A stretch of 64,000 nucleotides of DNA from Clostridia bacterium. GTDB lineage: Bacteria > Bacillota > Clostridia > Christensenellales > CAG-314. The notes beneath the pieces are model-generated. The model was not told the DNA's origin and did no database searches. It saw only the letters and a program-made list of their open reading frames with translations. Positions 5,943 through 58,525 of the stretch are shown here, piece after piece. Both the position numbers and the translations under genes were made by a program. Position 1 is the stretch's first letter, and each line of letters starts with the position of its first letter. Where the stretch lies: assembly GCA_036654455.1 (NCBI GenBank), contig JAVVRZ010000004.1:199-64198 (forward strand). Reading direction: 5' to 3'.

Positions 5943-6713
5943 TTGACAACAATTTTAGCTAATAATTATTATTTAGTTTGCTTATACATAGTATATAGCG
6001 TGAGCATTGTTATAATTGATAGCGGAGTAGGGGGAAGCTCCGTTTACCAAAAGGTAAAAAAATTACTTCCTCAGCAAAATTACATATATTTTTGCGATAA
6101 TTTGCATTTCCCATACGGAGAGCGTAGCGTTATGGAGTTGCAACAAATAGCCAAACAAAACATCGATTACTTGATAAACAATTACCAAGTAAGTTGTTTT
6201 GTTTTAGCTTGCAATACTATTACGGCTTGCGCAATAGATTGTCTGCGGTCAACCTACCTAGACTATTCTTTCGTAGGCACTGAACCGCCAATTAAACAAG
6301 CGCTTGAATATACGGCTAATAATTGCTTAGTCGCCAGCACTCGGGCGACAGCGTTAAGTCAACGCTTAAAAGAGCGTTTTAACCAAGATAACGTTAAATT
6401 TGTAGCTTTTGACAAGCTTGCCTCAATGGTAGAATGTCAAGAGCCAAGCAAAAATATTAGTAGATATATCAATAGCGTACTTGAAAAACAAGATTATAAT
6501 TTTGACTGCGTAGCCTTAGGTTGCACGCATTTTTTATTATGTAAATACGAATTTTCCCAAGCATTTATCGGCGAAGTGTTTGATGGTAGCTTAGGGGTTG
6601 CGTCTAGGGTTAAACAATTAGTCGGCAAGGCTAGGCAAGAATTTGCTTGTTCGGTTATTTTAACCAAGCACGACGACAACAAATACAATCAAATTGTTAA
6701 GTTATTACAGTAA
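5943..6713 (+). CDS. murI: glutamate racemase
   Basis: IIDSGVGGSSVY, LACNT and LGCTHF motifs. The true start may be the GTG at ~6001 (VSIVIIDSGVGG). Confidence 0.85.
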   Translation: MTTILANNYYLVCLYIVYSVSIVIIDSGVGGSSVYQKVKKLLPQQNYIYFCDNLHFPYGERSVMELQQIAKQNIDYLINNYQVSCFVLACNTITACAIDCLRSTYLDYSFVGTEPPIKQALEYTANNCLVASTRATALSQRLKERFNQDNVKFVAFDKLASMVECQEPSKNISRYINSVLEKQDYNFDCVALGCTHFLLCKYEFSQAFIGEVFDGSLGVASRVKQLVGKARQEFACSVILTKHDDNKYNQIVKLLQ

Positions 6714-6942
6714 TTTTTATTTTTATCTTTGCCATTGTTGCTTTTATTTGTATTATTTGGTTTAACTTGAAATAAAATAAATCAATTTATTAAAAATATT
6801 CCTCTATTTATAATAAAAATAATAGTAAATAACCTTAAACTATTTGATAAATATAGCTGTTTAGTGTATAATCACGTTATATGGCGGTTTTTAACTACCT
6901 GTAACGCAAGTTTTATAAATTAAAGATAAAGGGGAATAAAAG

Positions 6943-9000: not shown

Positions 9001-9020
9001 ACTAATATTTACAAAATTTA

Positions 9021-9050
9021 AAGGGGCAATTAGATACGCCCCTTTTTTGT
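9021..9050 (+). terminator. rho-independent terminator
   Basis: AAGGGGC..GCCCCTT followed by TTTTGT. Confidence 0.7.
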
Positions 9051-9139
9051 ATAAATTTTACCGTTTTTATATTTTACTTAAAAAAATTGATTTTTAGTCA
9101 ACATTACTATATAATGTATGGCAAGATAAGGAGAAGTTT

Positions 9140-10159
9140 ATGAAAATTTTGGTTACGGGCGGTACGGGCTACATCGGTAGTCATATTGTAGTCGAATTAT
9201 TAAGCAGAGGCGACGAAGTCGTTATAATAGACAACCTCTCTAACAGCGACATTACCGTACTTGACCGAATAGCTCAAATTACTTCGGTTCGTCCGTCGTT
9301 TTATAAATTAGATTTATGTGACCTTGACGGGTTGTCGTACATTTTTTCCATACACAAATTCGATGTGGTAATACATCTTGCAGGCAAAAAAGCAGTAGGC
9401 GAAAGCGTAGAAAAACCCCAAGAATATTACTACGTCAACCTTATCGCCACGCTTAATTTAGCCTCGTGTATGCAACAATTTGAAGTAAAAAATCTTGTAT
9501 TTTCTTCTTCGGCTACGGTGTATAGCCCAAGCAAAACTCCCGTAGACGAACAAGCTAATCTAGGTTGTACAAACCCTTATGGATATACCAAATTATTTAA
9601 CGAACAGATACTAATTGATATATGCAAAGCTAACAAATCTCTTAACGTTGCAATTTTAAGGTATTTTAACCCGCTGGGAGCGCATTCTAGCGGTCTAATA
9701 GGAGAGTGTCCTATTGATACGCCTAACAATCTTGCGCCCTACGTGCTTGCGGTTGCAGGACGACAATTACCCTACGTAAGAGTATTTGGCAACGATTATT
9801 CTACGCCTGACGGCACAGGCGTAAGGGACTATATTCACGTTTGCGACCTAGCAAAGGGGCATATTAAAGTTATTGACAAACTGCTTACAAACTGCGGTTG
9901 TGTAATATATAATTTAGGAACTGGCAAGGGCTATTCCGTGCTTGAAGTAATCGACGCTTACAGGGTAGCGACTAAGGCGGATATTCCATATCAATTTTTG
10001 CCAAGACGACCAGGCGACATTGACTCGGTCTACGCCGTAGCCGATAAGGCACGTAGAGAACTTGGTTTTACGGCAGAAAGAACCTTACTTGATATGGCAA
10101 AAGACAGTTGGAAATGGTATCAATATTATTTAGCTCATATCAATAAGACAAAGAATTAA
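9140..10159 (+). CDS. galE: UDP-glucose 4-epimerase
   Basis: ILVTGGTGYIGSH Rossmann motif, catalytic YGYTK, 339 aa. Confidence 0.9.
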   Translation: MKILVTGGTGYIGSHIVVELLSRGDEVVIIDNLSNSDITVLDRIAQITSVRPSFYKLDLCDLDGLSYIFSIHKFDVVIHLAGKKAVGESVEKPQEYYYVNLIATLNLASCMQQFEVKNLVFSSSATVYSPSKTPVDEQANLGCTNPYGYTKLFNEQILIDICKANKSLNVAILRYFNPLGAHSSGLIGECPIDTPNNLAPYVLAVAGRQLPYVRVFGNDYSTPDGTGVRDYIHVCDLAKGHIKVIDKLLTNCGCVIYNLGTGKGYSVLEVIDAYRVATKADIPYQFLPRRPGDIDSVYAVADKARRELGFTAERTLLDMAKDSWKWYQYYLAHINKTKN

Positions 10160-10298
10160 CTTTGAGAACTTGTGATTGACAAATGATTGACAAACATATC
10201 AAGGGTTAGTTTAGCTAAGTCGCTTAATAGAATATTTAGCAAGAGTTATTTAATTGAAAATTATTAAAATTATTAAAACAAATTATAGGAAGTAAATT

Positions 10299-11168
10299 AT
10301 GACAGTAAACAAGGCTTGTATATTAGCCGCAGGTCGTGGAACACGATTTTTGCCCTACACTAAGGCGGTTAGTAAAGAAATGATAGCCGTTGTCGACCGT
10401 CCTGCAATTTCGCTAATCGTAGACGAAGTAATCAGTTCGGGGATAAAGGATATTTTAATCGTCATTAGTCACGACAAAGAACAAATAATTAAGTATTTTA
10501 GTCCCGACCAAGACTTGCAAAATTTTTTAATTGCAAAAAATAAACCTATTCTTGCAAAATTAGTACAAGAAATAGGCGATAGAGCAAATATTTCTTATGT
10601 TTTTCAGTCTGTTGCAAATGGCTCGGGCGAAGCGGTTAAACTTGCAAAAGAGTTTTGCGACAATTCGCCTTGCGTTATTCTTAACGGCGACGACGCAATA
10701 TATAACGCAAATAAGACTGCAACGACCCAATTAATAGAGTGCTACGAGAAATATAACCATACTGTAATAGGCGTGCAACAAGTTACTCGTCAACAAATTA
10801 GCGCTTACGCCTCTTGCAACATTGTAGCAAGTTTTGCAAAAGCTCACTTAGTCGACCAAGTGATTGAAAAGCCTTGCGAACAACAAATTAAGAGCTTGCT
10901 TGCTCCGCTAGGTCGCTACGTAATTACCCCAGACTTTTTTAATTACTTAGACAAGATTACTCCTGCAAATAACGGCGAACTTCAATTTACCGATGCAATA
11001 AACTTGCAAGCTAACAAAGTCGGCATTTACGCTTACGAATTTGAGGGTAGACGCTACGACTTAGGCGACAAATTAGGCTATCTTGAAGCCGTAGTGGAAT
11101 ACGCTCTTAGAGATAATTTGTTAGGCGAACCTTTTGCCAGGTACTTAAAGACTTTAAATAATAAATAA
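10299..11168 (+). CDS. galU: UTP--glucose-1-phosphate uridylyltransferase
   Basis: AAGRGTRFLPYTKAVSKEM signature, 289 aa. Confidence 0.9.
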   Translation: MTVNKACILAAGRGTRFLPYTKAVSKEMIAVVDRPAISLIVDEVISSGIKDILIVISHDKEQIIKYFSPDQDLQNFLIAKNKPILAKLVQEIGDRANISYVFQSVANGSGEAVKLAKEFCDNSPCVILNGDDAIYNANKTATTQLIECYEKYNHTVIGVQQVTRQQISAYASCNIVASFAKAHLVDQVIEKPCEQQIKSLLAPLGRYVITPDFFNYLDKITPANNGELQFTDAINLQANKVGIYAYEFEGRRYDLGDKLGYLEAVVEYALRDNLLGEPFARYLKTLNNK

Positions 11169-11204
11169 TTAGTAATATATTTTTATAAAAAAAGGAGAAC
11201 ATCT

Positions 11205-12989
11205 ATGAGTTATCAAACAAGAAACGACATTCCTACCCAGCACAAATGGAACTTAGCCGACATTTTTGTTTCAACGGAGGCGTGGGACAAGGAATTTGAG
11301 CAAATCTTGGCTTTACTGCCCACGTTTACCGAATACAAGGGCAAGCTTAACAACAAAAAGACCATTCTTGAAATGTATAAAAATAATGACATTACAGAAG
11401 AACGTATTGAAAAGTTGTATTGCTACGCTTATATGACTTATTGCGAGGACAGCAAGAACACCGATTCGCAAACAAGATATGGCAAAGTATCTACATTGCT
11501 CTCTAAGATGTCGGAGCTACTCGCTTATGTAGAACCGGAAATGTCTAAAATACCCGACCAAGAACTTAACGAAATGGTTGCCGACAAAGATTTTGCCGAT
11601 TATAGCGAAAGCCTAAAAGCTTTAATTAGAAATAAGCCTCACGTACTCAGCGAAGAACAAGAACGCATAGTAGCTTCAACTGGCGACGTTACCAGATTTT
11701 TTAACGAAACATTTTCTCGTCTAGATAGCGGCGACCTCGACTACGGCTCGATTATGGTCGACGGCAAGGAAGTTAAACTTTCTCACGGCGCATACTCAAC
11801 CTTAATGCAACACCCCGACCAAAACGTTCGCAAACTTGCCTTCGAAAGGTATTATAAGGCTTATATCGACCAAGTAAATACAATTTCGGCAATATACGAG
11901 GGTAGCGTTAAGAGCGACATTTTCTACGCTAAGGTAAGAAAATTTGACTCGGCTATGGAGAAAGCAACTTTCTACGAAAACGCCGACAAAGTCGTTTATG
12001 AAAATTTAATTAAGAGCATCAACAATTCTTTTGAACCTTTGCACGAATATATAGCGCTACGCAAAAAATTATTAAAGGTCGACAAGTTAAATATGTACGA
12101 TTTGCACGTTCCAATCTTTGCTAACGCCGATATAGCTGTCGATTATGAAAAAGCGTTTGATATGGTGCTTGAAGGTCTTGCTCCCTTAGGCGAAGACTAT
12201 CGCAAACTATTACTTACTGCTCGCAATAACCGTTGGGTTGACGTTTATGAAACTCCAACTAAGCGTGGCGGAGCATACTCAATGGGCGTTACCGGCGTTC
12301 ACCCCTTTGTAATGTTAAATTATCAAGAAACAACGCACGACATATTTACCCTCGCTCACGAGCTAGGTCACTCAATGCACAGTCATTATTCGTCAAAGAA
12401 TCAACCGCAAGCAAAAGCCGGCTACACAATATTTGTCGCCGAAGTTGCTTCAACCGTAAACGAAGTGTTGCTACTTAATTACTTACTTGCAAAAGAAAAA
12501 GACGTAAATATTAAGAAATATCTACTATCTTACTACCTAGATATGTTACGCACTACTATGTATAGACAAGCAATGTTTGCCGAATTTGAGTATATCGCCC
12601 ACAAGAGAAGCGAGAACGGCGAACCTTTGTCAAGCGAAGTGCTAAGTAACGACTATTACGAACTAAACAAGAAGTATTATGGACCATCGGTTGAGCATAA
12701 CCAACAAATTAGATACGAATGGGCAAGAATACCTCACTTTTACAGGGCGTTTTACGTTTATAAATATAGCACAGGCATTACAAGCGCAGTATGTATCGCT
12801 CAAAGAATACTCAAAGAGGGCGCTCCAATGGTAGCTAAATACAAACAATTCTTATCGCTAGGTTGTTCGCTTGACCCGGTAAGCGAGCTTAAAGTTGCAG
12901 GCGTTGACCTAACAAGCAATGTTCCGTTTGACATAGTTAAGCAGTCTTTTGCCGAAACGTTACAACAATTAAAGGAGCTATACGAATAA
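11205..12989 (+). CDS. pepF: oligoendopeptidase F (M3B)
   Basis: HELGHSMH zinc motif, ~594 aa, typical N-terminus (..KWNLADIF..). Confidence 0.9.
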   Translation: MSYQTRNDIPTQHKWNLADIFVSTEAWDKEFEQILALLPTFTEYKGKLNNKKTILEMYKNNDITEERIEKLYCYAYMTYCEDSKNTDSQTRYGKVSTLLSKMSELLAYVEPEMSKIPDQELNEMVADKDFADYSESLKALIRNKPHVLSEEQERIVASTGDVTRFFNETFSRLDSGDLDYGSIMVDGKEVKLSHGAYSTLMQHPDQNVRKLAFERYYKAYIDQVNTISAIYEGSVKSDIFYAKVRKFDSAMEKATFYENADKVVYENLIKSINNSFEPLHEYIALRKKLLKVDKLNMYDLHVPIFANADIAVDYEKAFDMVLEGLAPLGEDYRKLLLTARNNRWVDVYETPTKRGGAYSMGVTGVHPFVMLNYQETTHDIFTLAHELGHSMHSHYSSKNQPQAKAGYTIFVAEVASTVNEVLLLNYLLAKEKDVNIKKYLLSYYLDMLRTTMYRQAMFAEFEYIAHKRSENGEPLSSEVLSNDYYELNKKYYGPSVEHNQQIRYEWARIPHFYRAFYVYKYSTGITSAVCIAQRILKEGAPMVAKYKQFLSLGCSLDPVSELKVAGVDLTSNVPFDIVKQSFAETLQQLKELYE

Positions 12990-43622: not shown

Positions 43623-44393
43623 TTAATTATGGAGCAAGGGGCTAAGAGGTTTGTACAATAAATAAGTAATCGCTCCAACAATAGTCAATCTAATTATGTT
43701 AAATGGAATTACGGCTAAGCAGATGTAATAAACATAGAAAGTATCTTTTGTTACGCCGTTATATAGTTTGCCGACAACATCAAGTAGACCCTGCCAATTT
43801 CCGCCAAACATAGCTTCTACGTAGAAGGGTATTATAATTAGTCTGTTTGCAAGCACCGAAGCGACAAGAGCGCACGCCATACCGCAAGCAATGCCGATTA
43901 AGGCGTTTTTCTTGCTCTTTTTATGTTTATAAATTAAGCTTGCCGGCAAGACAAAGGCAATGCCTATTAGTATGTCGCAAAGTTCGCCCACGCAAACCGA
44001 GCTTGTAAAAGGCATTTTTAAACAACATTTTAAAACAATTATTATTACGCTTGCAAGCGGTCCTATTGCAAAACCGCCTATTAGCGCAGGCATATCCGAA
44101 AATTGTATGTCAAGCCAAATAGGAAAGATAAACCCTAATGGAAATTTGACAAACATATACAATATATAGGATACGGCGGTAAGTATAGCCATACGGGCGA
44201 TATTTTTTGCCGTAAAGAACTTAGGCGAGCTAAGTTTTGTAATAGGCAAGGCTACCGTATCGTCTTTTAGTGTAGAAATTGTGTTTTGACTGTCTTGTTT
44301 ATTTGCCTCTTGACCTTGTTCTTGCGGTTTAGTTTCTTGTTCTTGTAGCGTAGGTTCTTTTTGATTTGTCTTTTTTTGTGATTTGTTGCTCAT
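43623..44393 (-). CDS. ribU: ECF-type riboflavin transporter S component with Q/E/K-rich N-terminal extension
   Basis: Polytopic ECF S-component-like protein directly downstream of an FMN riboswitch. Confidence 0.7.
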   Translation of the reverse strand: MSNKSQKKTNQKEPTLQEQETKPQEQGQEANKQDSQNTISTLKDDTVALPITKLSSPKFFTAKNIARMAILTAVSYILYMFVKFPLGFIFPIWLDIQFSDMPALIGGFAIGPLASVIIIVLKCCLKMPFTSSVCVGELCDILIGIAFVLPASLIYKHKKSKKNALIGIACGMACALVASVLANRLIIIPFYVEAMFGGNWQGLLDVVGKLYNGVTKDTFYVYYICLAVIPFNIIRLTIVGAITYLLYKPLSPLLHN

Positions 44394-44460: not shown

Positions 44461-44464
44461 ATGT

Positions 44465-44585
44465 TCATTCTTTTCCCATCCGGACTATAACCGTCGGTAC
44501 AGGAATTACGCCTGTTCGGCACAGCTTTCGCTATGTTAATGGACTATTACCATCGGTAGAGATTTTCACTCTGCCCCAAAGAATT
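44465..44585 (-). promoter_or_regulatory. FMN riboswitch (RFN element)
   Basis: Minus strand reads TTCTTTGGGGCAGAGTGAAAATCTCTACCGATGGTAATAGTCC...CCGACGGTTATAGTCCGGATGGGAAAAGAA, matching the conserved RFN cores. Confidence 0.9.
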
Positions 44586-44611
44586 ATTAAATATTTGTAT
44601 ATTACGGATAG

Positions 44612-46442: not shown

Positions 46443-46517
46443 TTCCTCCTTAGCTCAGCGGTAGAGCATCCGGCTGTTAACCGGAGGGTCGTTGGTTCAA
46501 ACCCAACAGGGGGAGCC
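46443..46517 (+). tRNA. tRNA-Asn (anticodon GTT), CCA encoded
   Basis: Acceptor TCCTCCT/AGGGGGA, D-arm AGCTCAGCGGTAGAGC, anticodon loop CTGTTAA, T-arm GGTTCAAACCC. Confidence 0.9.
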
Positions 46518-46523
46518 ATCTAG

Positions 46524-46565
46524 GTATACACTTATGTCTTAATCGACACGAGTGTATATTTTTTT
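46524..46565 (+). terminator. rho-independent terminator after the tRNA
   Basis: TATACACT..AGTGTATA stem followed by T8. Confidence 0.7.
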
Positions 46566-46849
46566 GCCCAAAATAAGTTTTGCAAGGATATTGACGAGTT
46601 TAGTAAGGGAATTAGCTAGTTTAGCAATGATTTTAATGAATTTAGCGAGGATATTCTCACATTTCTCAAATATTTTTAGCGAAAAGTCTTAAAGAGTTCT
46701 CGCTATTTTTATAAAGTTAACTAATCGGCACTATGTTAGAATTCGAATGTCCGCAAAACATACCCCGAAAACCCTAGTTAACTAACCCTCACCATTTGGA
46801 GAATCGAATGTACATAGCTTAATGAAGTATTAATGATAAAATATTTTTA

Positions 46850-46878
46850 TTGACTTTGTTTGAGTAGAAGAATATAAT
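46850..46878 (+). promoter_or_regulatory. promoter TTGACT-N17-TATAAT
   Basis: TTGACTTTGTTTGAGTAGAAGAATATAAT, 27 nt upstream of the decayed HTH ORF. Confidence 0.6.
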
Positions 46879-46904
46879 ATAAATAATACTTTGAGGAATT
46901 TGTT

Positions 46905-47040
46905 ATGGTAAAAGTAGAGTTGCAGTATATGACGACAAACCAAACGGGTAAGCTTTGGGGAATTTCTCAGCGAAGAGTTGGCGTCCTCTGCAAGTAAAAC
47001 CGCGTGGATAAAGACGGTTGTGGGCAAGTATAGTATTTGA
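46905..47040 (+). pseudogene. decayed small helix-turn-helix (mobile-element-type DNA-binding) gene
   Basis: MVKVELQYMTTNQTGKLWGISQRRVGVLCK*NRVDKDGCGQV*YL resembles the ..WGIS.RRV..LC..GRI.GA.K.G..W.IP family, but has two in-frame stops. Confidence 0.45.
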
Positions 47041-47126
47041 TTTAATTATCTTAAACAACTAGTTAACAATTGCAGATGCAAAAAACAAGGAGTTAGTCAA
47101 AAATTTGACAAAATGGAGGCGTGTAA

Positions 47127-47360
47127 GTGAAAGATTTAAGTTTATTAGAACAATATGAATTTTCTTTAAAAATGTTAAGCATAGTAATGCCTATCCTGGC
47201 TGTTATTATGGTTATTATTGGAATAATACTTAGTATAGCACTACAAAAAGTGTTTTGGGTTGGATTAATAATAGTTGCAATTGGATTAGGTGTCTTTGTG
47301 TTATTTGTATTAATTAGGAAATTTCTAATTTGGAAAATCAATGGTTTAAAAAATCTATAA
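47127..47360 (+). CDS. hypothetical small two-TM membrane protein
   Basis: GTG start with GGAGG 7 nt upstream. 77 aa with two long hydrophobic helices. Ends exactly where the cas7 remnant frame opens. Confidence 0.5.
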   Translation: MKDLSLLEQYEFSLKMLSIVMPILAVIMVIIGIILSIALQKVFWVGLIIVAIGLGVFVLFVLIRKFLIWKINGLKNL

Positions 47361-47697
47361 AAACATTGTGCCATACGCTTTATATAAAGCCGAAGGTTAT
47401 GTTCAATCGATTCTTGCAAATAAAACAGGCTTTGACGAGGAAGACTTGGAATTGCTTTGGAAGTCAATTTTGAATATGTTTGAAAACGACCACAGCAGTT
47501 TAAGGGGCAAGATGTGCATGAGAAAATTGATTATCTTTAAGCACGATTCGTTGCTTGGAAACGCTCCTTCGCATAAGCTGTTCGAACTAGTTAAAATCGT
47601 AAAAAAAGATGAAAACAAGGTTACGAGAAATTACAGCGATTATGATATTTCAATAAGTAGCGACATTTTAGAAGGCGTAGAAATCATTGAAAAATAA
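47350..47697 (+). pseudogene. cas7: C-terminal remnant (~105 aa) of type I-C Cas7 (Csd2)
   Basis: PYALYKAEGYV..NKTGFDEEDLELLWKSILNMFENDHSSLRGKMCMRKLIIFKHDSLLGNAPSHKLFELVK matches my recollection of the Csd2 C-terminus. The frame opens after a TAA at 47347. Its stop overlaps the cas4 ATG (TAATG). Confidence 0.7.
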
Positions 47698-48365
47698 TGG
47701 AAGAATACATAGCATTAAGAAGTATTCAACAGTTTTATTACTGTCCGCATAGATGGGGGCTTATGCAAATAAATTGCGATTGGGAAAGCAATTATTTTGT
47801 TGTGCAAGGAGATATTTTACACGAAAAAGTTGACATAAAAGAGCTAATAAAAATTGGTGATAAATATCAATATAAGAGCCTAAGCGTTTTCAATGAAGAT
47901 TACGGAATTTTTGGGATTGCTGACGTTCTTGAACTAAAGAAATCTAAAAAAGGCATAAGAATAGAGTTACTTAATGATAGCTTCGATGTGGAGATTGTAG
48001 AATTTAAAAATACATTTGGGAAAGAACAAAAATTAGACGATTTGTTGCAAATATACGGACAAAAATTATGCGTGGACAAGATGTTTGGTTGCAATTCTAA
48101 AGTTTGCTTTTATTATAATGATATAAAAAGAAGAAGTAACGTGGTAATAACTGAAAAAATCAAACAAGAATTTGAAAATACGATTATAAAAATCAAAGAA
48201 TATTTAAAGAACAACCAAATACCCGAAGTTAAAAAAGGACAGAAATGTAGCGGTTGCTCGCTTGAAAATATTTGTATGCCTATAAAAAGAAAGACAAAAA
48301 GTTTTATGAAAATGGTGGAAACAACAAATGAAGAAATTACTAAATACGCTTTATGTAACAAGTGA
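47697..48365 (+). CDS. cas4: CRISPR-associated exonuclease Cas4
   Basis: N-terminal Cys (YYCPHRWGL) plus C-terminal CSGCSLENIC cluster, RecB-like core, 222 aa. Confidence 0.85.
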   Translation: MEEYIALRSIQQFYYCPHRWGLMQINCDWESNYFVVQGDILHEKVDIKELIKIGDKYQYKSLSVFNEDYGIFGIADVLELKKSKKGIRIELLNDSFDVEIVEFKNTFGKEQKLDDLLQIYGQKLCVDKMFGCNSKVCFYYNDIKRRSNVVITEKIKQEFENTIIKIKEYLKNNQIPEVKKGQKCSGCSLENICMPIKRKTKSFMKMVETTNEEITKYALCNK

Positions 48366-49350
48366 AGATACCTATTTGGCTTTAAATGGCGAAAATATAG
48401 TTATCATAAGAAAAGATAAGGATGATGTTAGGTTTCCGCTTTGCAATTTAGAAGAAATAGTGTGCTTTAATTATACAGGAGCAAGTCCGCAACTTATGGG
48501 CAAGTGTATGGCGGACAATATATCGTTGACTTTTTTGTCTCCAAGTGGCAAACTGTTGGGCAGGGTGATCGGGCGCATAAAAGGGAATGTGTTTACTCGA
48601 ATGGCGCAAATAAAAATGTTTGAAAATAATGAAGTAAAGCTTAAACTTATTCAAAATACTATAGCTTGCAAATTGCTAAATACAAAGTTCTTAATTTCGC
48701 GTTCGCTTAGAGATTATCCGCAAATTGATAATGATAAATGCGTAACGGAGCTTATAAATAAAATAGCAAAAAGAATTGACGTTTTGTATGGCATTGCGGA
48801 AATAGATATATTACGTGGCATTGAAGGCGATATTGCAAAAGATTATTTCGGAATTTTTGACAGATTAATAAGAAACGATGCCTTTAAGTTTAACGGACGA
48901 TCTAAACGGCCGCCGCTTGACGAAATAAACGCATGTCTATCTTTTTTATATGCTATTCAATCAAATTCAATAGCTGCCGCGCTAGAAGTAGTGGGAATCG
49001 ATTCTTATATTGGCTTTTTCCACACAGAAAGGCCAGGCAGAATTTCGTTTGCGCTTGATATTGTTGAAGAATTTAGGGCGATGATTGATAGGTTTGTCAT
49101 TTCAGCTATAAACCTTAAACAGCTGACATTAACCGACTTTATCAAAGAACTAGGCGGAAGTGTTTTGTTAAATGACAGCGGAAGGCAAAAGATTTTAAAG
49201 TTGTGGCAAGATAAGAAGAAAGAAAATATATATCACCAAGTTCTTAAGCAAAACATTCAGTTTGGCATTTTGCCGTTTATACAAGCAAACTTATTTGGGA
49301 AATTTTTAAGAGGAGAAATCGAGGAGTATATTCCTTATTTGATTAAATAA
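48328..49350 (+). CDS. cas1: CRISPR-associated endonuclease Cas1 (I-C type)
   Basis: MKKLLNTLYVTSEDTYLALNGENIVI start, 340 aa, overlaps the cas4 3' end by 38 nt. Confidence 0.9.
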   Translation: MKKLLNTLYVTSEDTYLALNGENIVIIRKDKDDVRFPLCNLEEIVCFNYTGASPQLMGKCMADNISLTFLSPSGKLLGRVIGRIKGNVFTRMAQIKMFENNEVKLKLIQNTIACKLLNTKFLISRSLRDYPQIDNDKCVTELINKIAKRIDVLYGIAEIDILRGIEGDIAKDYFGIFDRLIRNDAFKFNGRSKRPPLDEINACLSFLYAIQSNSIAAALEVVGIDSYIGFFHTERPGRISFALDIVEEFRAMIDRFVISAINLKQLTLTDFIKELGGSVLLNDSGRQKILKLWQDKKKENIYHQVLKQNIQFGILPFIQANLFGKFLRGEIEEYIPYLIK

Positions 49351-49352
49351 CA

Positions 49353-49643
49353 ATGCTAATGTTAATAACTTATGATGTGTCTACAATCGATAGCGTAGGT
49401 AAAAGCAGGTTGAGAAAAGTTGCAAAGGAATGCATAAATTATGGGCAGCGTGTCCAAAATTCCGTTTTTGAAGTCAACACAGATTACGGAACTATTTTAA
49501 AGTTGAAAAATAAACTAATAAAAATTATTGATCAATCAAAAGATAGCATACGATTTTACCATATAGGAAATAATTGGGAAAATAAAGTTGAGCATTTTGG
49601 TGTCAAAGAAAGCTATAACCCCGAAGACTTATTGTTAATCTAG
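49353..49643 (+). CDS. cas2: CRISPR-associated endoribonuclease Cas2
   Basis: MLMLITYDVS...RLRKVAKECINYGQRVQNSVFEV, 96 aa. Confidence 0.9.
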   Translation: MLMLITYDVSTIDSVGKSRLRKVAKECINYGQRVQNSVFEVNTDYGTILKLKNKLIKIIDQSKDSIRFYHIGNNWENKVEHFGVKESYNPEDLLLI

Positions 49644-49822
49644 GTTTGCGAACTAAAAGCTCGTTACACAATTCCATTGGGTTCGCAAGCAAAAATAGTT
49701 GAAATTATAAAAATTGCAACTAAATTATAGAATAATTAATTAAATTAACTCAAAAATTCTATAATTCGTCCGCCTTTCGTTAAATGCAACTATGTTTTTA
49801 TATGTCATACTATAAAAATAGA
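49644..49822 (+). promoter_or_regulatory. CRISPR leader (AT-rich)
   Basis: Lies between the cas2 stop and repeat 1. Contains inverted repeat TTGCGAAC(49646)/GTTCGCAA(49681) and a TATAAT at 49760-49765. Confidence 0.7.
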
Positions 49823-51119
49823 GTTGCACCCCGCGAGGGGTGTGTGGATTGAAATAATAAGCAATATTAACAATTCCAAAATGTACGGAGGTTGCACCCC
49901 GCGAGGGGTGTGTGGATTGAAATTCCTTTCATATAAATTTTGAAAATATCGTAAAAAGTTGCACCCCGCGAGGGGTGTGTGGATTGAAATGATTTTCTTT
50001 ATAGAACTTTAATTTTCTATTTAGGTTGCACCCCGCGAGGGGTGTGTGGATTGAAATTTTTTGTATACAAAAATACTTTTTGAGATACCCTGTTGCACCC
50101 CGCGAGGGGTGTGTGGATTGAAATGATAATATTGTTTTATCCATATTTTTTTATCTCGTTGCACCCCGCGAGGGGTGTGTGGATTGAAATAAATATACCA
50201 CTTGCAAGTGTCAACGAATGGATTATGTTGCACCCCGCGAGGGGTGTGTGGATTGAAATGCCTAAATTTTTGCAAACATATATTGGATACAAAGTTGCAC
50301 CCCGCGAGGGGTGTGTGGATTGAAATTTGTTTTTTAGTACCCCCTTACAAACGTTTGTTGTTGCACCCCGCGAGGGGTGTGTGGATTGAAATGTTGTAAT
50401 ATCTACATAAGAATATGCTTTCGTGGGTTGCACCCCGCGAGGGGTGTGTGGATTGAAATTTTCTAGTTTAATTATAGCTGTATCACTCCCAATGTTGCAC
50501 CCCGCGAGGGGTGTGTGGATTGAAATTCTTTCTTCCATAATTTACTCCTTTTTTATTTTATAGTTGCACCCCGCGAGGGGTGTGTGGATTGAAATCAAAG
50601 AGAATTTATTTGTCGCTATGCCGAGTAGAGTTGCACCCCGCGAGGGGTGTGTGGATTGAAATTTTATTGTGCTGTCAGTTTGTGCCATTAAAAATAGGTT
50701 GCACCCCGCGAGGGGTGTGTGGATTGAAATTTTCTGCAATAGTCATTTTACTCTCCTTTCATAGTTGCACCCCGCGAGGGGTGTGTGGATTGAAATTTAT
50801 TTTTGTCGGGTGGACAACATCGGCTGATGGGTTGCACCCCGCGAGGGGTGTGTGGATTGAAATAGCTAATGATAATCTACCAGTTGCTACTTACGAAGTT
50901 GCACCCCGCGAGGGGTGTGTGGATTGAAATGTATGTATTTTGCGACATCGATTTGCCGGCGTGGTTGCACCCCGCGAGGGGTGTGTGGATTGAAATCATT
51001 AACTGGGTCGGTAACCCTTGCAACGGTGTGTTGCACCCCGTGAGGGGTGTGTGGATTGAAATCGAGATACTCTTCGTGATGATTTCATCCATTCCGTTGC
51101 ACCCCGCGAGGGGTGTGTG
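49823..51119 (+). CRISPR. CRISPR array, 20 repeats of 33 nt (GTTGCACCCCGCGAGGGGTGTGTGGATTGAAAT), 19 spacers of 33-36 nt
   Basis: Repeat starts: 49823, 49891, 49958, 50025, 50092, 50158, 50227, 50294, 50360, 50427, 50494, 50563, 50630, 50698, 50764, 50831, 50898, 50964, 51030 (C12T variant), 51096 (only the first 24 nt). I-C-like repeat with ATTGAAAT 3' end. Confidence 0.97.
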
Positions 51120-51433
51120 CAAACGTGGTCACCATACTAATATAGAGTTGAACCAAAATCCACAGAAGGGAAATTCAAACAAAGCGTATTTACGTAAGGA
51201 ATTGCGTTACGACACAAAAGACGGGTTTTGAAGATGTACTTAATGATTATGAGTTAAGTCCTGCCGATAAAATAAAAGTGATTGAGTACATAGAAAACTG
51301 TAAAAAGAAAAAGTAGCCTATTGGCGGTAGTCATTAACTACCACAAGTCTACTTTCAGCAAGCAAACGCTTACTTTGATATACTACGCTACTTTGGCTTA
51401 TTTGTCAACCAAATAAACGTTAATAAAAGAAGT
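51120..51433 (+). pseudogene. non-CRISPR insert in the array carrying a frameshifted C-terminal gene fragment
   Basis: Reads ..NSNKAYLRKELRYDTKDGF* and then, one base out of frame, EDVLNDYELSPADKIKVIEYIENCKKKK*. No start codon or RBS. Confidence 0.5.
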
Positions 51434-51532
51434 GTTGCACCCCGTGAGGGGTGTGTGGATTGAAATATTGACAACCTTTATATCATTTGGTATAATAAAT
51501 CTTACACTTGCGAGAAGTGTGCGGGCTGAAAT
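51434..51532 (+). CRISPR. detached mini-array: variant repeat, 34-nt spacer, degenerate repeat
   Basis: 51434-51466 is the repeat with the same C12T change as repeat 19. 51501-51532 is CTTACACTTGCGAGAAGTGTGCGGGCTGAAAT (about 10 mismatches and 1 deletion). Confidence 0.85.
51468..51496 (+). promoter_or_regulatory. perfect consensus promoter TTGACA-N17-TATAAT inside the mini-array spacer
   Basis: TTGACAACCTTTATATCATTTGGTATAAT. Confidence 0.6.
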
Positions 51533-51715
51533 ATAAATGATACGCAAAAGCGACGAAAAATTTATTGTTACGGCGAGCCGAGAGAAGACGAAGCGCCGAA
51601 TTTCTTGTTAAAAGAGCTAAACGCAAATTATTTAAGCATTAAATTAGAAGTTGCAATGAGGATAGTTTATACAATCTCACAGCGTGTAAATAGTAAGTCA
51701 CAGAGGTAAATTAAA

Positions 51716-52213
51716 ATGAAAAAGCTGTATATCATAGGTGGTACAATGGGGGTCGGGAAGACTACCGTATGCCAGCAATTAAAAAAGGTTTTGGCAAAAA
51801 GCGTGTTTCTTGACGGTGATTGTTGTTGGGATATGCAACCTTTTGTTGTTAACGAAGAAACGAAAGCAATGGTTATAAAAAATATCTGTTTTTTACTCAA
51901 TCAATTCTTACATTGTTCCGTTTACGAAAATATAATTTTTTGTTGGGTATTGCACCAGCAAGATATAATTGATACTATTCTTAATAGTCTTGATACTACA
52001 AATTGCGAATTGGCAATTATTTCTCTCCTTTGTAATGCTAACACGCTAAATGCAAGATTGGACAAAGACATTCGTGAGGGCATTCGAAGTAATGATGTAA
52101 TCGAAAGAAGCGTTGGGAGAATACCACTTTATGATAACCTTTCTACCGAGAAAATTATTACAGATGGAAAAAGTGTTGACGATATCGTAAAAGAAATTGT
52201 AGACAAGTTTTAA
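51716..52213 (+). CDS. small P-loop NTPase / nucleotide-kinase-like protein
   Basis: Walker A GGTMGVGKTT at aa 8-17, 165 aa, RBS AGAGG. Confidence 0.6.
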   Translation: MKKLYIIGGTMGVGKTTVCQQLKKVLAKSVFLDGDCCWDMQPFVVNEETKAMVIKNICFLLNQFLHCSVYENIIFCWVLHQQDIIDTILNSLDTTNCELAIISLLCNANTLNARLDKDIREGIRSNDVIERSVGRIPLYDNLSTEKIITDGKSVDDIVKEIVDKF

Positions 52214-52651
52214 AAAGTTAGTCCGCAAGTGCGTAGATAAAATGACAAATAAATTCTTTCGCAGTAATATAAGTGAGGCGTATCCGCTAAAAATTGTTAA
52301 GCGCTACTTTATTTATGTTTTAATGCAAATAAAAAATTAAAAAATTAGAAAACTTCAATAGCGATATCTTTACTAGCCTTACCGAAAGCTTGTAGATAGG
52401 CAAAAACTAAGCTAAGCGCTTTGCAAGCGTTCTAATGGAGTAGGTTAACGAAAATATAGCAAATAAAAAGTATCAAGAACAATTAGACGAATTATTTGCG
52501 TTAGAAATTGCAAAGTCTACTGGGTTAGAATGTGATAAAACAGTCCTAGCAAAACTTAAAAAAATTATAAAAACTAATAATTAAGCTCACTTAAAGTGGG
52601 CTTTTATTATACTTAGCTCTACAATAATAATAAGGGTAGCTAGGAGGTTTG

Positions 52652-55573: not shown

Positions 55574-58525
55574 ATGAAAAGATATGTTAAATCTTTGGTG
55601 TCAATTCTACTCGCTGTTGTTATGCTATTTACTTTTGTTGGCTGTGACGATACCCTTTTTGTTGTTAAGTTTTTTGACGGAACAGAACAAATCGGCAAAG
55701 ACGTAGCAGGGACTTCTAGCAAAGTGATTGTTCCCGTTACCGCTCCAACCAAAGTCGGTTACACATTTGAGGGTTGGTTTGACGCAAAGATTGACGGTAA
55801 TAAATTTGTAGATGGCACTAAGTTTACACAAAATATAACGTATTACGCAAGATATACCAAAGACGCCGAACCCACCGTTACCTATACTGTCAAATTTTTT
55901 GACGGAGATATCCAAGTAGGGCAAGACGTTGTTGGCGCTCCCGAACAAGTCATAGTAGCGCCTACTGCTCCAACCAAGGCTGGTTTTATATTTACAGGTT
56001 GGTTTGACCAAAAAGTCAATGGCGATAAATTAGAAAAAGACGCTAAGTTTACTAAAAATATATCTTATTATGCAAGGTATATTGCAGAGGGTCAATCTCC
56101 AACCACCTTTACAGTCAAGTTTTTTGACGGTTTAACGCAAATAGGGCAAGACGTTGTTGGCACTGCCGAACAGCTTATAGTTCCTCCTATGCCACCGGCC
56201 AAAAAAGGTTTTGTGTTTAGCGGTTGGTACGACCAACAAATAGGCGGTACAAAGTTGCCATTTGGCGCAAAATTTACTAAAAACGTAACTTACTACGCAA
56301 GGTACGAAGTAATGAAGACCGAAGGCGAAATTGAAGGCGACGTCAATGACGCCGTCGATAAGAGTCCTACTCTTTCTAGCGGTAATGTTGCGTTAGATAT
56401 CATAACCAAACAAGTTCTTAAAAAAATACTTGTTTCTACTTGCATTAAGTTGACGTTTAGCGGTGTTATGCAAGATAAGATTGCTATTTTGTTAGATATT
56501 TTTACCAACCCTAATAGCGAAATAGTTAGCTTAATAAATCAAATTAAGACAGCGCCTACCCCCGAACTTATTACAAAACTTATTGGATTGATTAAGCTTG
56601 ACGACTTTACCCCCGACGAAGTAGCAACTATTGTTAAGGCGCTTGTCGAGTCAACCTTAGACACAGCCTCAAAGAGTTCAACCTATGACGAACTTGTAAC
56701 CGAACTTAATAAATATGTCGCTACTTTTACCAAAGAACAAGTCAGCGAATATGCTTTTTACGCAGAACTAACTCTTATTAGAGATTACTACGGCAATTAC
56801 GGAAAATATGTATTTAACAATACCGATATGCCAGAAGTAGAATATAACGATTTTGTAGCTTTAATGAGGAGTTTGCCCGATTACAACGCTACTACTTTAA
56901 ATTCTACTACATACCAAACCTTAGTCGCTACGGCTACGTTTGAGCGTCCAAATCCCGTAATGGACTTTGTCAACAAGATTATCGCATCTATGGGCAAAGA
57001 TTATTCTGGCGCAGTAGCGGGTGAGGGTTCGCTTATAGCTAGACTTGCAAACGAGTCCAAACGCATAGAGGCTCTTCCTCAAAAACAAGCGATGGCAGAT
57101 TCTTTTGCTAAGGCGACAACTTTACAAAAGACGCTTACCGTGCGTTTGGCAAATATAATTAAGGCTAACGCTACGGCAACCGCCGAAGATTTAACTTTTT
57201 TACAAGATTGGTCTATTGAGTGGAAAGCGATATTTAAGGACACTAAGATTACTCCTCCGCAAACAGTAGAGGGATTAACGGCTAAATATATTGCCGAGCT
57301 TACAGTTCAAATGACTAGTGATATGCACGCTCTCGAAATGGCGCTTAAAGACTACGTTTCTTACGCTAACGCTCTAACGGCTATAAAGTTAATGCCTCTT
57401 GTTAGCTATCAAGTGACCCAAGTATTGTTTAGCGAGGCTTACATTAGCAAAGATTTACAAAAAAGTTTTATAGATTTAATTAAGCCTACAATAAAGACTT
57501 ACGCAGAGTTGAAAGGTAATTCTACAAAGATAGAGCCTTACATTCAACTGTTTAAGAGCGGTAATATTACTGACAAGCAATATTTAGAGTTTATTAAATT
57601 AGTTAAAGATTCGGCAAATTTAGTTAATTCCTATACTACCAAGAATGGTAATTCGCTCAACACTTTTGCCGACAAGATAGGTGTTTTGACAAGTAAATTT
57701 AAAGCGACACAGGATATTCCAATTACAGATATTATAAAAAGTTTAATCAGCGTAGGCAAAGAATTACCCCTACTCGCTACTACAATATTAGATACGTTGA
57801 ATAAACAACTGCTAATTGATATCTTTTCGCTTACAAATGAAGATTCTGTGCCGGCAAATGCGGTGATTGTTCTAGCCAGAATAGTTACGACAATCAATTC
57901 CAGTTTAACTGACGAACAAATATCCGCCCTTATTCCAACGCTACTTAATAGTTTAAGCGGACAAGTTAAGAGCGCTATGTTCTCGGCTTTACTTTCAAGC
58001 GGTCTATTTACAATGACAACACAAGATACCGAAATTGTAAATAAATATACTAAGGCGCAAGAAATAACTAGACTACTCGCTCTATTTAATTCGCAAATTG
58101 CGCAGGGCGAAAATGCTGTTAAAGCGACTTACAACAAGTTAATTGAGCTAACTCAAATTACAGTTACAATCACCGACTTTGCTTCGCAAACACAAGTTAA
58201 CGCCTTTGTAACTGCCGTTAAGGGCGTATTAGATGGGTTAAATATTGACTCGCTTGATAATCAAGTTAGCAATATAATGATATTTAAACTTCAAACGGCG
58301 ATTACAAAATATAACGCCCGTGACGAAATTTCGGCAATTGCAAGTTTGCCTTTGCTCACTTCAAGTTCGGGGGCGGAATATGTAACTTTCTTAACCACGC
58401 TCAACGCTTATTTTGCAAAAGTTGGCATAACGGAAATTGACGGCGCTACTTACCTTTCGCAATTAATAGCTATTATTAATACCCTTAAATTGTTAGGAAA
58501 CACTACGCCGACAGTTACTCCTTAA
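55574..58525 (+). CDS. large surface lipoprotein: three Listeria-Bacteroides-type (Flg_new) repeats plus ~740-aa uncharacterised helical region
   Basis: Signal peptide with lipobox-like FVGC (Cys24). Repeats carry ..KFFDG..Q.G.DV....E..V.P..P.K.G..F.GW.D....G.K......KFT.N..YYARY. Confidence 0.75.
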   Translation: MKRYVKSLVSILLAVVMLFTFVGCDDTLFVVKFFDGTEQIGKDVAGTSSKVIVPVTAPTKVGYTFEGWFDAKIDGNKFVDGTKFTQNITYYARYTKDAEPTVTYTVKFFDGDIQVGQDVVGAPEQVIVAPTAPTKAGFIFTGWFDQKVNGDKLEKDAKFTKNISYYARYIAEGQSPTTFTVKFFDGLTQIGQDVVGTAEQLIVPPMPPAKKGFVFSGWYDQQIGGTKLPFGAKFTKNVTYYARYEVMKTEGEIEGDVNDAVDKSPTLSSGNVALDIITKQVLKKILVSTCIKLTFSGVMQDKIAILLDIFTNPNSEIVSLINQIKTAPTPELITKLIGLIKLDDFTPDEVATIVKALVESTLDTASKSSTYDELVTELNKYVATFTKEQVSEYAFYAELTLIRDYYGNYGKYVFNNTDMPEVEYNDFVALMRSLPDYNATTLNSTTYQTLVATATFERPNPVMDFVNKIIASMGKDYSGAVAGEGSLIARLANESKRIEALPQKQAMADSFAKATTLQKTLTVRLANIIKANATATAEDLTFLQDWSIEWKAIFKDTKITPPQTVEGLTAKYIAELTVQMTSDMHALEMALKDYVSYANALTAIKLMPLVSYQVTQVLFSEAYISKDLQKSFIDLIKPTIKTYAELKGNSTKIEPYIQLFKSGNITDKQYLEFIKLVKDSANLVNSYTTKNGNSLNTFADKIGVLTSKFKATQDIPITDIIKSLISVGKELPLLATTILDTLNKQLLIDIFSLTNEDSVPANAVIVLARIVTTINSSLTDEQISALIPTLLNSLSGQVKSAMFSALLSSGLFTMTTQDTEIVNKYTKAQEITRLLALFNSQIAQGENAVKATYNKLIELTQITVTITDFASQTQVNAFVTAVKGVLDGLNIDSLDNQVSNIMIFKLQTAITKYNARDEISAIASLPLLTSSSGAEYVTFLTTLNAYFAKVGITEIDGATYLSQLIAIINTLKLLGNTTPTVTP
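55658..56305 (+). repeat. three in-frame 225-nt (75-aa period) coding repeats
   Basis: aa 29-94, 104-169 and 179-244 of the lipoprotein. Confidence 0.85.

What the first reader, a model, noticed from the sequence alone, without database searches (positions are those of the whole stretch)
46520..52650. Type I-C CRISPR-Cas without interference genes: only cas4-cas1-cas2 and a homogeneous 20-repeat array remain, beside tRNA-Asn
The canonical I-C order is cas3-cas5-cas8c-cas7-cas4-cas1-cas2-array. Here the locus begins with an in-frame ~105-aa C-terminal piece of cas7 whose stop still overlaps the cas4 ATG. Everything 5' of it is replaced by non-cas sequence (a decayed HTH gene and a small membrane ORF) directly downstream of tRNA-Asn. 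cas4, cas1, cas2, the leader and 18 identical repeats look undamaged. That pattern suggests either a very recent deletion or selection to keep an adaptation-only module. Without Cas5c, the I-C pre-crRNA endonuclease, the array should not be processed in cis. The options are therefore: (a) a freshly dead locus, (b) a spacer-acquisition module serving an effector encoded elsewhere, or (c) a non-canonical use of Cas4-Cas1-Cas2 and the array. To my eye the segment is AT-richer than its flanks, but I did not compute composition.
Basis: partly seen in the sequence, partly recalled or inferred. Interest (0 to 1): 0.7.

Follow-up and report, generated by a model that had tools for sequence, protein, structure and literature searches.

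The report
Recently beheaded type I-C CRISPR locus
This is an ordinary type I-C CRISPR-Cas locus in an uncultured Clostridia bacterium that recently lost its interference genes to a deletion, leaving the spacer-acquisition genes and a frozen, eroding array: a snapshot of CRISPR decay, not a new kind of system.

Summary
Downstream of tRNA-Asn lie a small membrane-protein gene, a Cas7/Csd2 C-terminal stub, undamaged-looking cas4, cas1 and cas2, a leader and a CRISPR array. No trace of cas3, cas5, cas8c or the cas7 N-terminus exists in the 64-kb window.

A relative with 91% identical Cas1 (L012) has a full cas8c-cas7-cas4-cas1-cas2-array locus. DNA homology to it starts abruptly at window 47359, which is cas7 codon 174 of 285. 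The same junction appears in five independent assemblies, so it is real and fixed in this population.

The deletion looks recent:
- The cas7 stub still shows dN/dS 0.065.
- Amino-acid change is not accelerated on this lineage (23 versus 21 unique changes).

So intact cas4-cas1-cas2 is not evidence that selection keeps them.

Three strains are 99.8-100% identical in the flanks. Their arrays share the nine leader-proximal spacers and differ only by internal block deletions. No spacer has been added; the array is only eroding.

An effector elsewhere or a non-canonical use is not excluded, but nothing supports either. Interest is low.

The parts
46444..46518 (+). tRNA-Asn (GTT), the left landmark. 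No duplicated 3' end (att-like repeat) occurs elsewhere in the window.
   Evidence: ARAGORN; Rfam tRNA, 67.7 bits; the 3'-end search finds only itself.
46519..47126 (+). Non-cas filler, GC 0.31. It holds a degenerate 21-bp tandem repeat (46576-46655), a promoter-like site (46850-46878, 11 of 12) and a stop-interrupted HTH/excisionase-like remnant (about 46906-47030).
   Evidence: HTH_59 E 0.03 and phrog_2655 excisionase E 0.02. No DNA match in the phage or plasmid collections.
47127..47360 (+). Gene for a 77-aa protein with two predicted membrane helices, preceded by a GGAGG ribosome-binding site. It belongs to a conserved small-protein family. Its stop codon sits on the deletion junction.
   Evidence: 24 homologues of 70-99 aa align end to end. 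Homologues lie in unrelated, non-CRISPR contexts.
47359..47697 (+). cas7 (csd2) C-terminal stub, covering codons 174-285 of the ancestral gene. The callable ORF runs 47368-47697 (109 aa, GTG start, no visible ribosome-binding site). The deletion junction lies at about 47355-47359.
   Evidence: Pfam and NCBIfam matches to the C-terminal 40% only. blastn homology to L012 begins at 47359, which is L012 position 1391. Junction alignment. tblastn with L008 and L006 Cas7 covers residues 174-280.
47697..48365 (+). cas4, 222 aa, apparently intact. The N-terminal Cys, the D...ExK nuclease motif, the Q..Y motif and the C-terminal CxxCx5C are all present.
   Evidence: Pfam Cas_Cas4. Aligns over residues 2-208 to B. 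halodurans I-C Cas4 in PDB 8D3L, E 2e-32. 83% identical to L012 Cas4 with dN/dS 0.14.
48328..49350 (+). cas1 of the I-C Cas1c type, 340 aa, apparently intact. The E (RGIEG), H (GFFH) and D/E (LDIVEEFR) active-site motifs are present.
   Evidence: Pfam E 1e-88. NCBIfam TIGR03640 Cas1c scores 384.9 bits against a cutoff of 385. Aligns over residues 1-339 to B. halodurans Cas1 in PDB 8D3L, E 2e-97. dN/dS 0.09.
49353..49643 (+). cas2, 96 aa, apparently intact, with the N-terminal ITYDV motif present.
   Evidence: Pfam E 9e-25; TIGR01573; 91% identical to L012 Cas2 with dN/dS 0.08.
49644..49822 (+). CRISPR leader, 179 nt, GC 0.26. It shares recognisable conserved blocks with the leader of the intact relative L012.
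   Evidence: Side-by-side leader sequences; blastn homology to L012 runs through it.
49823..51062 (+). Main CRISPR array: 19 repeats of 33 nt (18 perfect, the last with C>T) and 18 spacers of 33-36 nt. The repeat folds into a 7-bp GC stem followed by ...GGAUUGAAAU, as I-C repeats do.
51063..51433 (+). Damaged part of the array: one spacer (51063-51096), a repeat truncated to 24 nt (51097-51120) and a 313-nt foreign insert carrying gene-fragment-like reading frames.
   Evidence: The segment is identical in L001 and L002. No family or database match.
51434..51532 (+). Trailer unit: a C>T repeat (51434-51466), a 33-nt interval holding a perfect sigma-70 promoter consensus (51468-51496), and a degenerate terminal repeat (51500-51532).

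Best explanation
This is the remnant of a canonical type I-C CRISPR-Cas locus (cas3-cas5-cas8c-cas7-cas4-cas1-cas2-leader-array). One recent deletion or replacement removed cas3, cas5, cas8c and the first 173 codons of cas7. It joined the rest to the 3' end of an unrelated small membrane-protein gene downstream of tRNA-Asn.

Shown here: the breakpoint, the absence of effector genes in 64 kb, the intact adaptation genes, fixation of the junction in the sampled population, and an array that loses spacers without gaining any.

Inferred: the locus can no longer interfere. Without Cas5c the pre-crRNA is not processed, and there is no Cascade and no Cas3. It can no longer prime adaptation either. 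New spacers would bring no benefit, so the array is frozen and shrinks by repeat-repeat recombination. cas4-cas1-cas2 are still intact because too little time has passed for disabling mutations to appear. They may still be transcribed by read-through from the promoters of the upstream HTH remnant and small ORF. In that case rare naive acquisition remains biochemically possible, but it would have no consequence.
For: 1. Truncation point.
- The stub matches only the last 40% of Csd2.
- DNA homology to L012 starts abruptly at window 47359, which is cas7 codon 174 of 285. L012 carries intact cas8c-cas7-cas4-cas1-cas2 plus an array, has 91% identical Cas1, and its repeat differs by 1 nt.
- More distant relatives (L006, L008, L013) all have the full cas3-cas5-cas8c-cas7-cas4-cas1-cas2 order.

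2. No effector genes in the window.
- tblastn with Cas3, Cas5, Cas8c and the Cas7 N-terminus of L008 and L006 finds nothing with E below 0.6.
- The ten ORFs scanned (eight of the nine longest, plus two others) all match non-cas, housekeeping-type Pfam families.

3. Not an artefact. The identical junction occurs in two NCBI MAGs and in one Logan contig, L003; the other Logan contig, L004, starts inside cas4 and does not cover the junction. The stub protein carries four NCBI accessions.

4. Recency.
- Against L012, dN/dS is 0.065 for the stub, versus 0.143, 0.091 and 0.078 for cas4, cas1 and cas2, at dS 0.43-0.61.
- The relative-rate test with L013 as outgroup gives 23 versus 21 lineage-specific amino-acid changes overall, and 2 versus 3 in the stub.

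5. Frozen, eroding array.
- The window, L001 and L002 are 99.8-100% identical in the flanks.
- They share the nine leader-proximal spacers. They differ only in that the window lacks a block of 4 internal spacers and L001 lacks a different block of 6, relative to L002.
- The array also carries a truncated repeat and a 313-nt insert.

6. Literature. Incomplete CRISPR-Cas configurations are widely reported and read as degeneration (PMC8616872; PMC4521832).
Against: - The rest of the genome could not be inspected, so a second I-C effector operon cannot be ruled out.
- cas4, cas1, cas2 and the leader carry no lesion at all. That is also what selection for retention would produce.
- The strains compared are almost clonal, so 'no new spacers' covers only a short time span.
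- I could not tell an in-situ deletion from import of an already partial fragment by recombination. L012's locus sits in a different downstream context, and no 'empty-site' or intact-site relative of this chromosome region was found.
Confidence: 0.8

Rival explanations
1. Split system: cas4-cas1-cas2 and the array act as the adaptation and memory module for a complete I-C effector operon (cas3-cas5-cas8c-cas7) encoded elsewhere in the same genome. That operon would process and use these crRNAs in trans.
For: The adaptation genes, leader and 18 repeats are undamaged. Only 64 kb of the genome could be examined.
Against: - The 90%-identity cluster holding this Cas7 contains only the 109-aa stub (four NCBI accessions plus Logan) and L012's full-length protein. 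No near-identical full-length Cas7 was called in the MAGs that carry the stub.
- cas7 here is physically cut. A trans effector would therefore have to be a second complete I-C operon, and such operons normally bring their own cas4-cas1-cas2.
- No spacer was gained at the leader end among the three strains, although two independent spacer losses occurred.
- The exact repeat was not found in IMG/VR or in JGI metagenome contigs.
Confidence: 0.07
2. Selected retention for a non-canonical role. Examples: Cas4-Cas1-Cas2 used in DNA repair or recombination; or an orphan array kept as a decoy or 'anti-cas' barrier that turns any incoming I-C system against its own carrier element.
For: The module is intact. 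Functional orphan arrays of this sort are documented for E. coli I-F (Almendros et al. 2016, as summarised in PMC8616872). The junction leaves the cas genes directly downstream of an apparently expressed small gene, with no predicted terminator between them.
Against: - The cas7 stub, which can have no such role, is just as well preserved as cas4, cas1 and cas2. Preservation therefore needs no selection.
- No spacer matches the I-C cas genes available from relatives or the window itself beyond chance-level hits of 11-24 nt, all E 0.01 or higher.
- Spacers are being lost.
- Five other short Cas7 hits on long contigs were all frameshift-split genes inside fuller loci. The 'stub plus adaptation module' layout is not recurrent in that small sample.
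Confidence: 0.08
3. The partial locus was never complete in this genome. A fragment running from mid-cas7 to the end of the array was imported by recombination from a donor carrying an intact I-C locus.
For: - The cas segment has lower GC than the window (0.329 versus 0.371).
- The closest intact relative has the locus in a different downstream context.
- The region lies next to a tRNA gene and an excisionase-like remnant.
Against: No att-like repeat, integrase or transposase flanks the segment. The functional outcome is the same as for an in-situ deletion. The data cannot separate the two.
Confidence: 0.04
4. Assembly or binning artefact: a chimeric contig joins unrelated sequence to the middle of cas7.
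For: The sequences come from metagenome-assembled genomes.
Against: The same junction is found at 100% identity in separately assembled contigs: two NCBI MAGs and a Logan assembly (L003) of a different run. A second Logan contig (L004) covers only cas4-cas2.
Confidence: 0.01

Closest known systems
Canonical type I-C (Dvulg/Csd) CRISPR-Cas, e.g. Bacillus halodurans (Cas4-Cas1-Cas2 structures PDB 8D3L/8D3M/8D3P/8D3Q) and the intact loci L012, L013, L006 and L008 found here
   Same: - Cas1 is the Cas1c type (TIGR03640).
- Cas4 and Cas1 align end to end with the B. halodurans I-C proteins.
- The Cas7 stub is Csd2 (TIGR02589).
- The gene order cas7-cas4-cas1-cas2-leader-array is kept, including the overlapping cas7 stop and cas4 start.
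- The 33-nt hairpin repeat ends in ATTGAAAT.
   Different: cas3, cas5c, the signature gene cas8c and 61% of cas7 are missing. crRNA processing and interference cannot be carried out by this locus.
Degenerate, partial or orphan CRISPR-Cas loci, as surveyed in PMC8616872 and reported for example in Bifidobacterium (PMC4521832)
   Same: Part of the cas operon is lost while the array is kept. There are signs of erosion: internal spacer deletions, a truncated repeat and a foreign insert.
   Different: Here decay is caught very early. The breakpoint can be mapped to a single codon, and the surviving genes carry no lesions yet.
Orphan I-F CRISPR arrays of E. coli with anti-cas spacers (Almendros et al. 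2016, cited in PMC8616872)
   Same: An array persists after the cognate interference genes are lost.
   Different: No spacer here matches the cas genes available for comparison. The adaptation genes are still present.
L009 (GCA_902465315.1), another decaying I-C locus met during this work
   Same: An I-C locus with missing or broken parts, in a chromosomal context.
   Different: L009 keeps cas5-cas8c and a split cas7 but lacks cas3 and has only a cas2 stub. That is a different decay path.

Membership tests
Type I-C CRISPR-Cas (complete, functional system) | Signature large subunit Cas8c (Csd1) | tested here: not met
   tblastn with L008 and L006 Cas8c against the whole window gives a best E of 0.63. 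No Csd1 Pfam hit among the window ORFs examined.
Type I-C CRISPR-Cas (complete, functional system) | Cas5c (Cas5d), the pre-crRNA endonuclease | tested here: not met
   tblastn gives a best E of 1.3. The rest of the genome was not available.
Type I-C CRISPR-Cas (complete, functional system) | Cas3 helicase-nuclease | tested here: not met
   tblastn gives a best E of 2.7. The ten ORFs scanned, all of 450 aa or more (eight of the nine longest in the window), match non-cas Pfam families.
Type I-C CRISPR-Cas (complete, functional system) | Full-length Cas7/Csd2 backbone subunit | tested here: not met
   Only profile positions 171-282 of 284 are present. Homology to L012 cas7 starts at codon 174.
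Type I-C CRISPR-Cas (origin of the remnant) | Cas1 of the Cas1c clade, with Cas4 and Cas2 in the order cas4-cas1-cas2 | tested here: met
   TIGR03640 scores 384.9 bits against a cutoff of 385. The best PDB matches are B. halodurans I-C Cas1 and Cas4 in 8D3L. Pfam Cas2.
Type I-C CRISPR-Cas (origin of the remnant) | Repeat of about 32-33 nt with a GC-rich hairpin and an AUUGAAA(U/C) 3' end giving the 11-nt handle | tested here: met
   20 copies. Predicted fold is a 7-bp stem with a tetraloop, -13.7 kcal/mol. That this shape is typical of I-C rests on my own knowledge of published I-C repeats.
Type I-C CRISPR-Cas (origin of the remnant) | Protospacers flanked by the 5'-TTC PAM | tested here: inconclusive
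   No protospacer was found for any spacer: phage and plasmid collections, five spacers in IMG/VR, and the window and fetched loci.
Degenerate / partial CRISPR-Cas locus | Loss of genes essential for one stage of immunity, with the array retained | tested here: met
Degenerate / partial CRISPR-Cas locus | No ongoing spacer acquisition; array erosion | tested here: met
   Three strains have identical leader-end spacers and two independent internal block deletions. The array also has a truncated repeat and an insert. The time span sampled is short.
Active crRNA-producing array | Mature crRNAs detectable | not testable with these tools
   Needs small-RNA sequencing of the organism or community.

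The most novel reading that the evidence does not exclude
The adaptation-only remnant is kept and still works as a spacer-capturing 'memory bank'. A compatible I-C effector would use the array in trans. That effector would be either a diverged second operon in the same genome or one supplied transiently by a mobile element or by a co-resident relative such as the L012 lineage. Under this reading, loss of the cis effector lowers autoimmunity cost rather than ending immunity.
Probability: 0.06. Interest if true: 0.6.

Novelty: new member of a known kind. Interest (0 to 1): 0.2.

Why it matters
It matters only modestly. The locus is a clean, datable example of the first step of CRISPR-Cas decay. 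One deletion, mapped to a single codon, removes interference while adaptation genes, leader and array stay untouched. Population data then show the array eroding without replenishment.

It is also a useful caution: intact cas1, cas2 and cas4 next to an array should not be read as evidence of function or selection. It adds no new mechanism and opens no long-standing question.

Tried and rejected
1. Spacer targets: none found.
- Whole array against INPHARED phages: only one weak AT-rich 71% hit.
- L002's larger array against PLSDB plasmids: only other I-C-like arrays.
- Five spacers and the repeat against IMG/VR: 0 hits.
- Repeat against JGI metagenome contigs: 0 hits.
- The age and source of the spacers, and the PAM, therefore could not be assessed.

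2. Self-targeting or anti-cas spacers as the cause of the loss. Only chance-level matches of 11-24 nt (all E 0.01 or higher) to the window and to cas genes of relatives. The cas3 and cas5 genes of the closest relative were not available.

3. Is 'Cas7 stub plus adaptation module' a recurrent layout? Five short Cas7 hits on long contigs were checked (P0111, P0058, P0078, P0107, P0116). All are frameshift-split cas7 genes with cas5 and cas8c upstream. The idea was rejected for this sample.

4. Is the small ORF the N-terminal fragment of a larger gene cut by the deletion? Rejected. Homologues are 70-99 aa and align end to end.

5. Is the small ORF CRISPR-associated elsewhere? No. Its homologues sit in unrelated contexts.

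6. Integrated-island signature at tRNA-Asn. No att-like duplicate of the tRNA 3' end. No DNA match of the filler region to phages or plasmids.

7. The genome-contig scan with Cas1 found only relatives at 41-62% identity, and this species is not among the representatives. A whole-genome check for effector genes was therefore impossible.

8. The 313-nt insert in the array gave no Pfam or PHROG match.

Full report
**What is there**

The window is chromosomal and about 37% GC. It carries a 5S rRNA, an FMN riboswitch and many housekeeping genes. NCBI labels the proteins of this locus 'MAG... [Clostridia bacterium]'.

Reading left to right on the + strand:
- tRNA-Asn(GTT) at 46444-46518.
- About 600 bp of AT-rich filler. 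It holds a degenerate 21-bp tandem repeat and a stop-interrupted HTH/excisionase-like remnant, supported only weakly (E 0.02-0.03).
- A 77-aa ORF with two predicted membrane helices at 47127-47360, preceded by a GGAGG ribosome-binding site.
- A 109-aa ORF at 47368-47697. It matches only the C-terminal 40% of Cas7/Csd2: Pfam positions 154-248 of 249 (E 1e-32), and NCBIfam TIGR02589 positions 171-282 of 284.
- cas4 (47697-48365), cas1 (48328-49350) and cas2 (49353-49643), all full-length.
- A 179-nt leader, then an array of the repeat GTTGCACCCCGCGAGGGGTGTGTGGATTGAAAT. There are 20 matches, against 0 expected by chance.

One correction concerns the array. It has 19 contiguous repeats: 18 perfect, and the last with a C>T change. 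A spacer and a repeat cut to 24 nt follow. Next come a 313-nt non-repeat insert, another C>T repeat, a 33-nt interval and a degenerate terminal repeat.

**Subtype**

- Cas1 scores 384.9 bits on the I-C Cas1c model (cutoff 385).
- Cas1 and Cas4 align end to end with the Bacillus halodurans type I-C proteins of PDB 8D3L (E 2e-97 and 2e-32).
- The repeat folds into a 7-bp GC stem followed by ...GGAUUGAAAU.
- Relatives found through Cas1 (L006, L008, L013) show the canonical order cas3-cas5-cas8c-cas7-cas4-cas1-cas2.

**Where the locus is cut**

The closest relative is L012, from MAG GCA_036650015.1. Its Cas1 is 91% identical and its repeat differs by one base. It carries cas8c (cut by the contig end), a 285-aa cas7, cas4, cas1, cas2 and an array.

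blastn homology between the window and L012 starts abruptly at window 47359, which is L012 position 1391. That is cas7 codon 174. The homology then runs without interruption through cas2 and the leader into the repeats. In the junction alignment, the sequence 5' of ...CTAT|AAAAACATTGTGCC is unrelated.

On the left side of the junction, the 77-aa ORF is not a fragment. Twenty-four homologues of 70-99 aa align with it end to end. They sit in unrelated, non-CRISPR contexts. Its TAA stop straddles the junction, so at most a few variable C-terminal residues were lost.

tblastn with Cas3, Cas5, Cas8c and the Cas7 N-terminus from two relatives finds nothing in the whole 64 kb (best E 0.63). The ten ORFs scanned (eight of the nine longest, plus two others) match housekeeping-type, non-cas Pfam families.

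**Not an artefact, and fixed in the population**

The exact Cas1 protein occurs on contigs from two other NCBI MAGs and two Logan assemblies. These contigs are 99.8-100% identical to the window over the flanks they cover. L001, L002 and L003 span the junction; L004 starts inside cas4. The stub protein has four NCBI accessions.

**How old is the deletion, and are the surviving genes under selection?**

- Against L012, dS is 0.43-0.61. dN/dS is 0.065 for the cas7 stub, 0.143 for cas4, 0.091 for cas1 and 0.078 for cas2.
- A relative-rate test with L013 as outgroup gives 23 amino-acid changes unique to the window lineage and 21 unique to L012. In the stub the counts are 2 and 3.
- A 112-residue C-terminal piece of a Cascade backbone protein, without Cas5c and Cas8c, has no plausible function. 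Yet it shows no relaxation of constraint.

The simplest reading is that nearly all divergence from L012 happened before the truncation, so the deletion is recent. The same reasoning removes the argument from intactness. cas4, cas1 and cas2 keep their catalytic motifs:
- Cas1: E in RGIEG, H in GFFH, D/E in LDIVEEFR.
- Cas2: the ITYDV motif.
- Cas4: the D...ExK motif, the Q..Y motif and four Cys.

That is what one expects shortly after the event, with or without selection.

**Is the array still being written?**

Three strains can be compared. L002 holds the fullest array, with 24 repeats. The window lacks one internal block of 4 spacers, and L001 lacks a different internal block of 6. The nine leader-proximal spacers are identical in all three.

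So since their common ancestor, which already carried the junction, two spacer-loss events occurred and no acquisition. This fits established I-C biology. Cas5c is needed to process the pre-crRNA, and Cascade with Cas3 is needed both for interference and for primed adaptation. Without them new spacers are rare and bring no benefit, while repeat-repeat recombination keeps deleting units. The caveat is that the strains are nearly clonal, so the time sampled is short.

**Effector elsewhere?**

This could not be tested directly. The species is not among the GTDB representatives searched, and whole MAGs cannot be fetched. There is partial evidence against it:
- The 90%-identity cluster around this Cas7 holds only the stub and L012's full-length protein.
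- The exact repeat is absent from IMG/VR and from JGI metagenome contigs.
- Because cas7 is physically cut, rescue would need a second complete I-C operon.

**Other checks**

- No spacer target was found anywhere searched. No spacer matches the window itself or the cas genes of relatives, so a self-targeting or anti-cas cause is unsupported.
- The 'stub plus adaptation module' layout is not recurrent in a sample of five short Cas7 hits on long contigs. All five were frameshift-split genes inside fuller loci.
- No att-like repeat flanks the region.
- GC is 0.329 for the cas segment against a window mean of 0.371 (lowest 3% of equal-sized windows).

**Verdict**

Incomplete CRISPR-Cas configurations are well known and are usually read as degeneration (PMC8616872; PMC4521832). 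This is a new instance of a known kind, notable only because the decay is caught early and can be mapped precisely. Interest is low, about 0.2. The most novel reading not excluded is a retained memory module used in trans; I put it at about 6%.

Noticed in passing
window 51468-51496 (+), within the trailer unit 51434-51532: A perfect sigma-70 consensus (TTGACA, 17 nt, TATAAT, 12 of 12, with an extended -10 TG) fills the 33-nt 'spacer' between the last full repeat and the degenerate terminal repeat. It points towards the AAA_18 kinase-like gene at 51716-52213. The degenerate repeat keeps its hairpin through paired CC>TT and GG>AA changes. It may be the promoter of the downstream gene, or a repeat-derived RNA unit.
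   Followed up: partly
window 51097-51433: The array is interrupted. A repeat is cut after 24 nt and followed by 313 nt of foreign sequence with gene-fragment-like frames (e.g. ...EDVLNDYELSPADKIKVIEYIENCKKKK*). The truncated repeat has the canonical C, whereas both neighbouring repeats have the C>T variant. That hints at recombination with another repeat-bearing DNA. The segment is identical in L001 and L002 and has no database or family match.
   Followed up: partly
window 46576-46655: A degenerate 21-bp tandem repeat (3.8 copies, consensus AGTTTAGCAAGGATATTAACG) lies immediately downstream of tRNA-Asn. It might be an iteron-like or protein-binding array. Its function is unknown.
   Followed up: no
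window 46906-47030: A stop-interrupted reading frame (MVKVELQYMTTNQTGKLWGISQRRVGVLCK*...) weakly resembles HTH_59 and phage excisionases (E 0.02-0.03). It follows a strong promoter-like site at 46850-46878. It may be the last trace of an element once integrated at tRNA-Asn.
   Followed up: partly
window 47127-47360; homologues P0242-P0265, loci L014-L017: The 77-aa protein with two predicted membrane helices belongs to a small uncharacterised family: 24 representatives of 70-99 aa, with conserved MK..LLEQY, MP, FWVGLI and IRKYL motifs. It has no Pfam, NCBIfam or PHROG model and occurs in varied genomic contexts.
   Followed up: partly
L009 (GCA_902465315.1, CABQMR010000002.1) 7242-12199: Another decaying I-C locus: cas5-cas8c, cas7 split into 124-aa and 171-aa ORFs, then cas4-cas1 and a 29-aa cas2 stub. 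No cas3 is called upstream.
   Followed up: no
L018 (ERZ28754151 contig_20229) 819-8357: An I-C locus with the unusual order cas4-cas1-cas2-cas3-cas5-cas8c-cas7, adaptation genes first. Several genes are split, possibly by long-read indel errors. Transposase genes lie downstream.
   Followed up: no
window 47697-48365 versus L012 1729-2397: Cas4 diverges faster than its neighbours. It is 83% identical in amino acids to L012 with dN/dS 0.14, against 91-93% and 0.07-0.09 for the Cas7 C-terminus, Cas1 and Cas2. Against L008 it is only 43% identical, where Cas1 is 62%.
   Followed up: partly
window 44464-44587 (-) and 43623-44393 (-): An FMN riboswitch (100 bits) sits upstream of an ECF-transporter S-component gene, presumably a riboflavin transporter. 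This is ordinary.
   Followed up: no
window 55574-58525 (+): A 983-aa protein with Listeria-Bacteroides (Flg_new) repeats, probably a surface protein.
   Followed up: no
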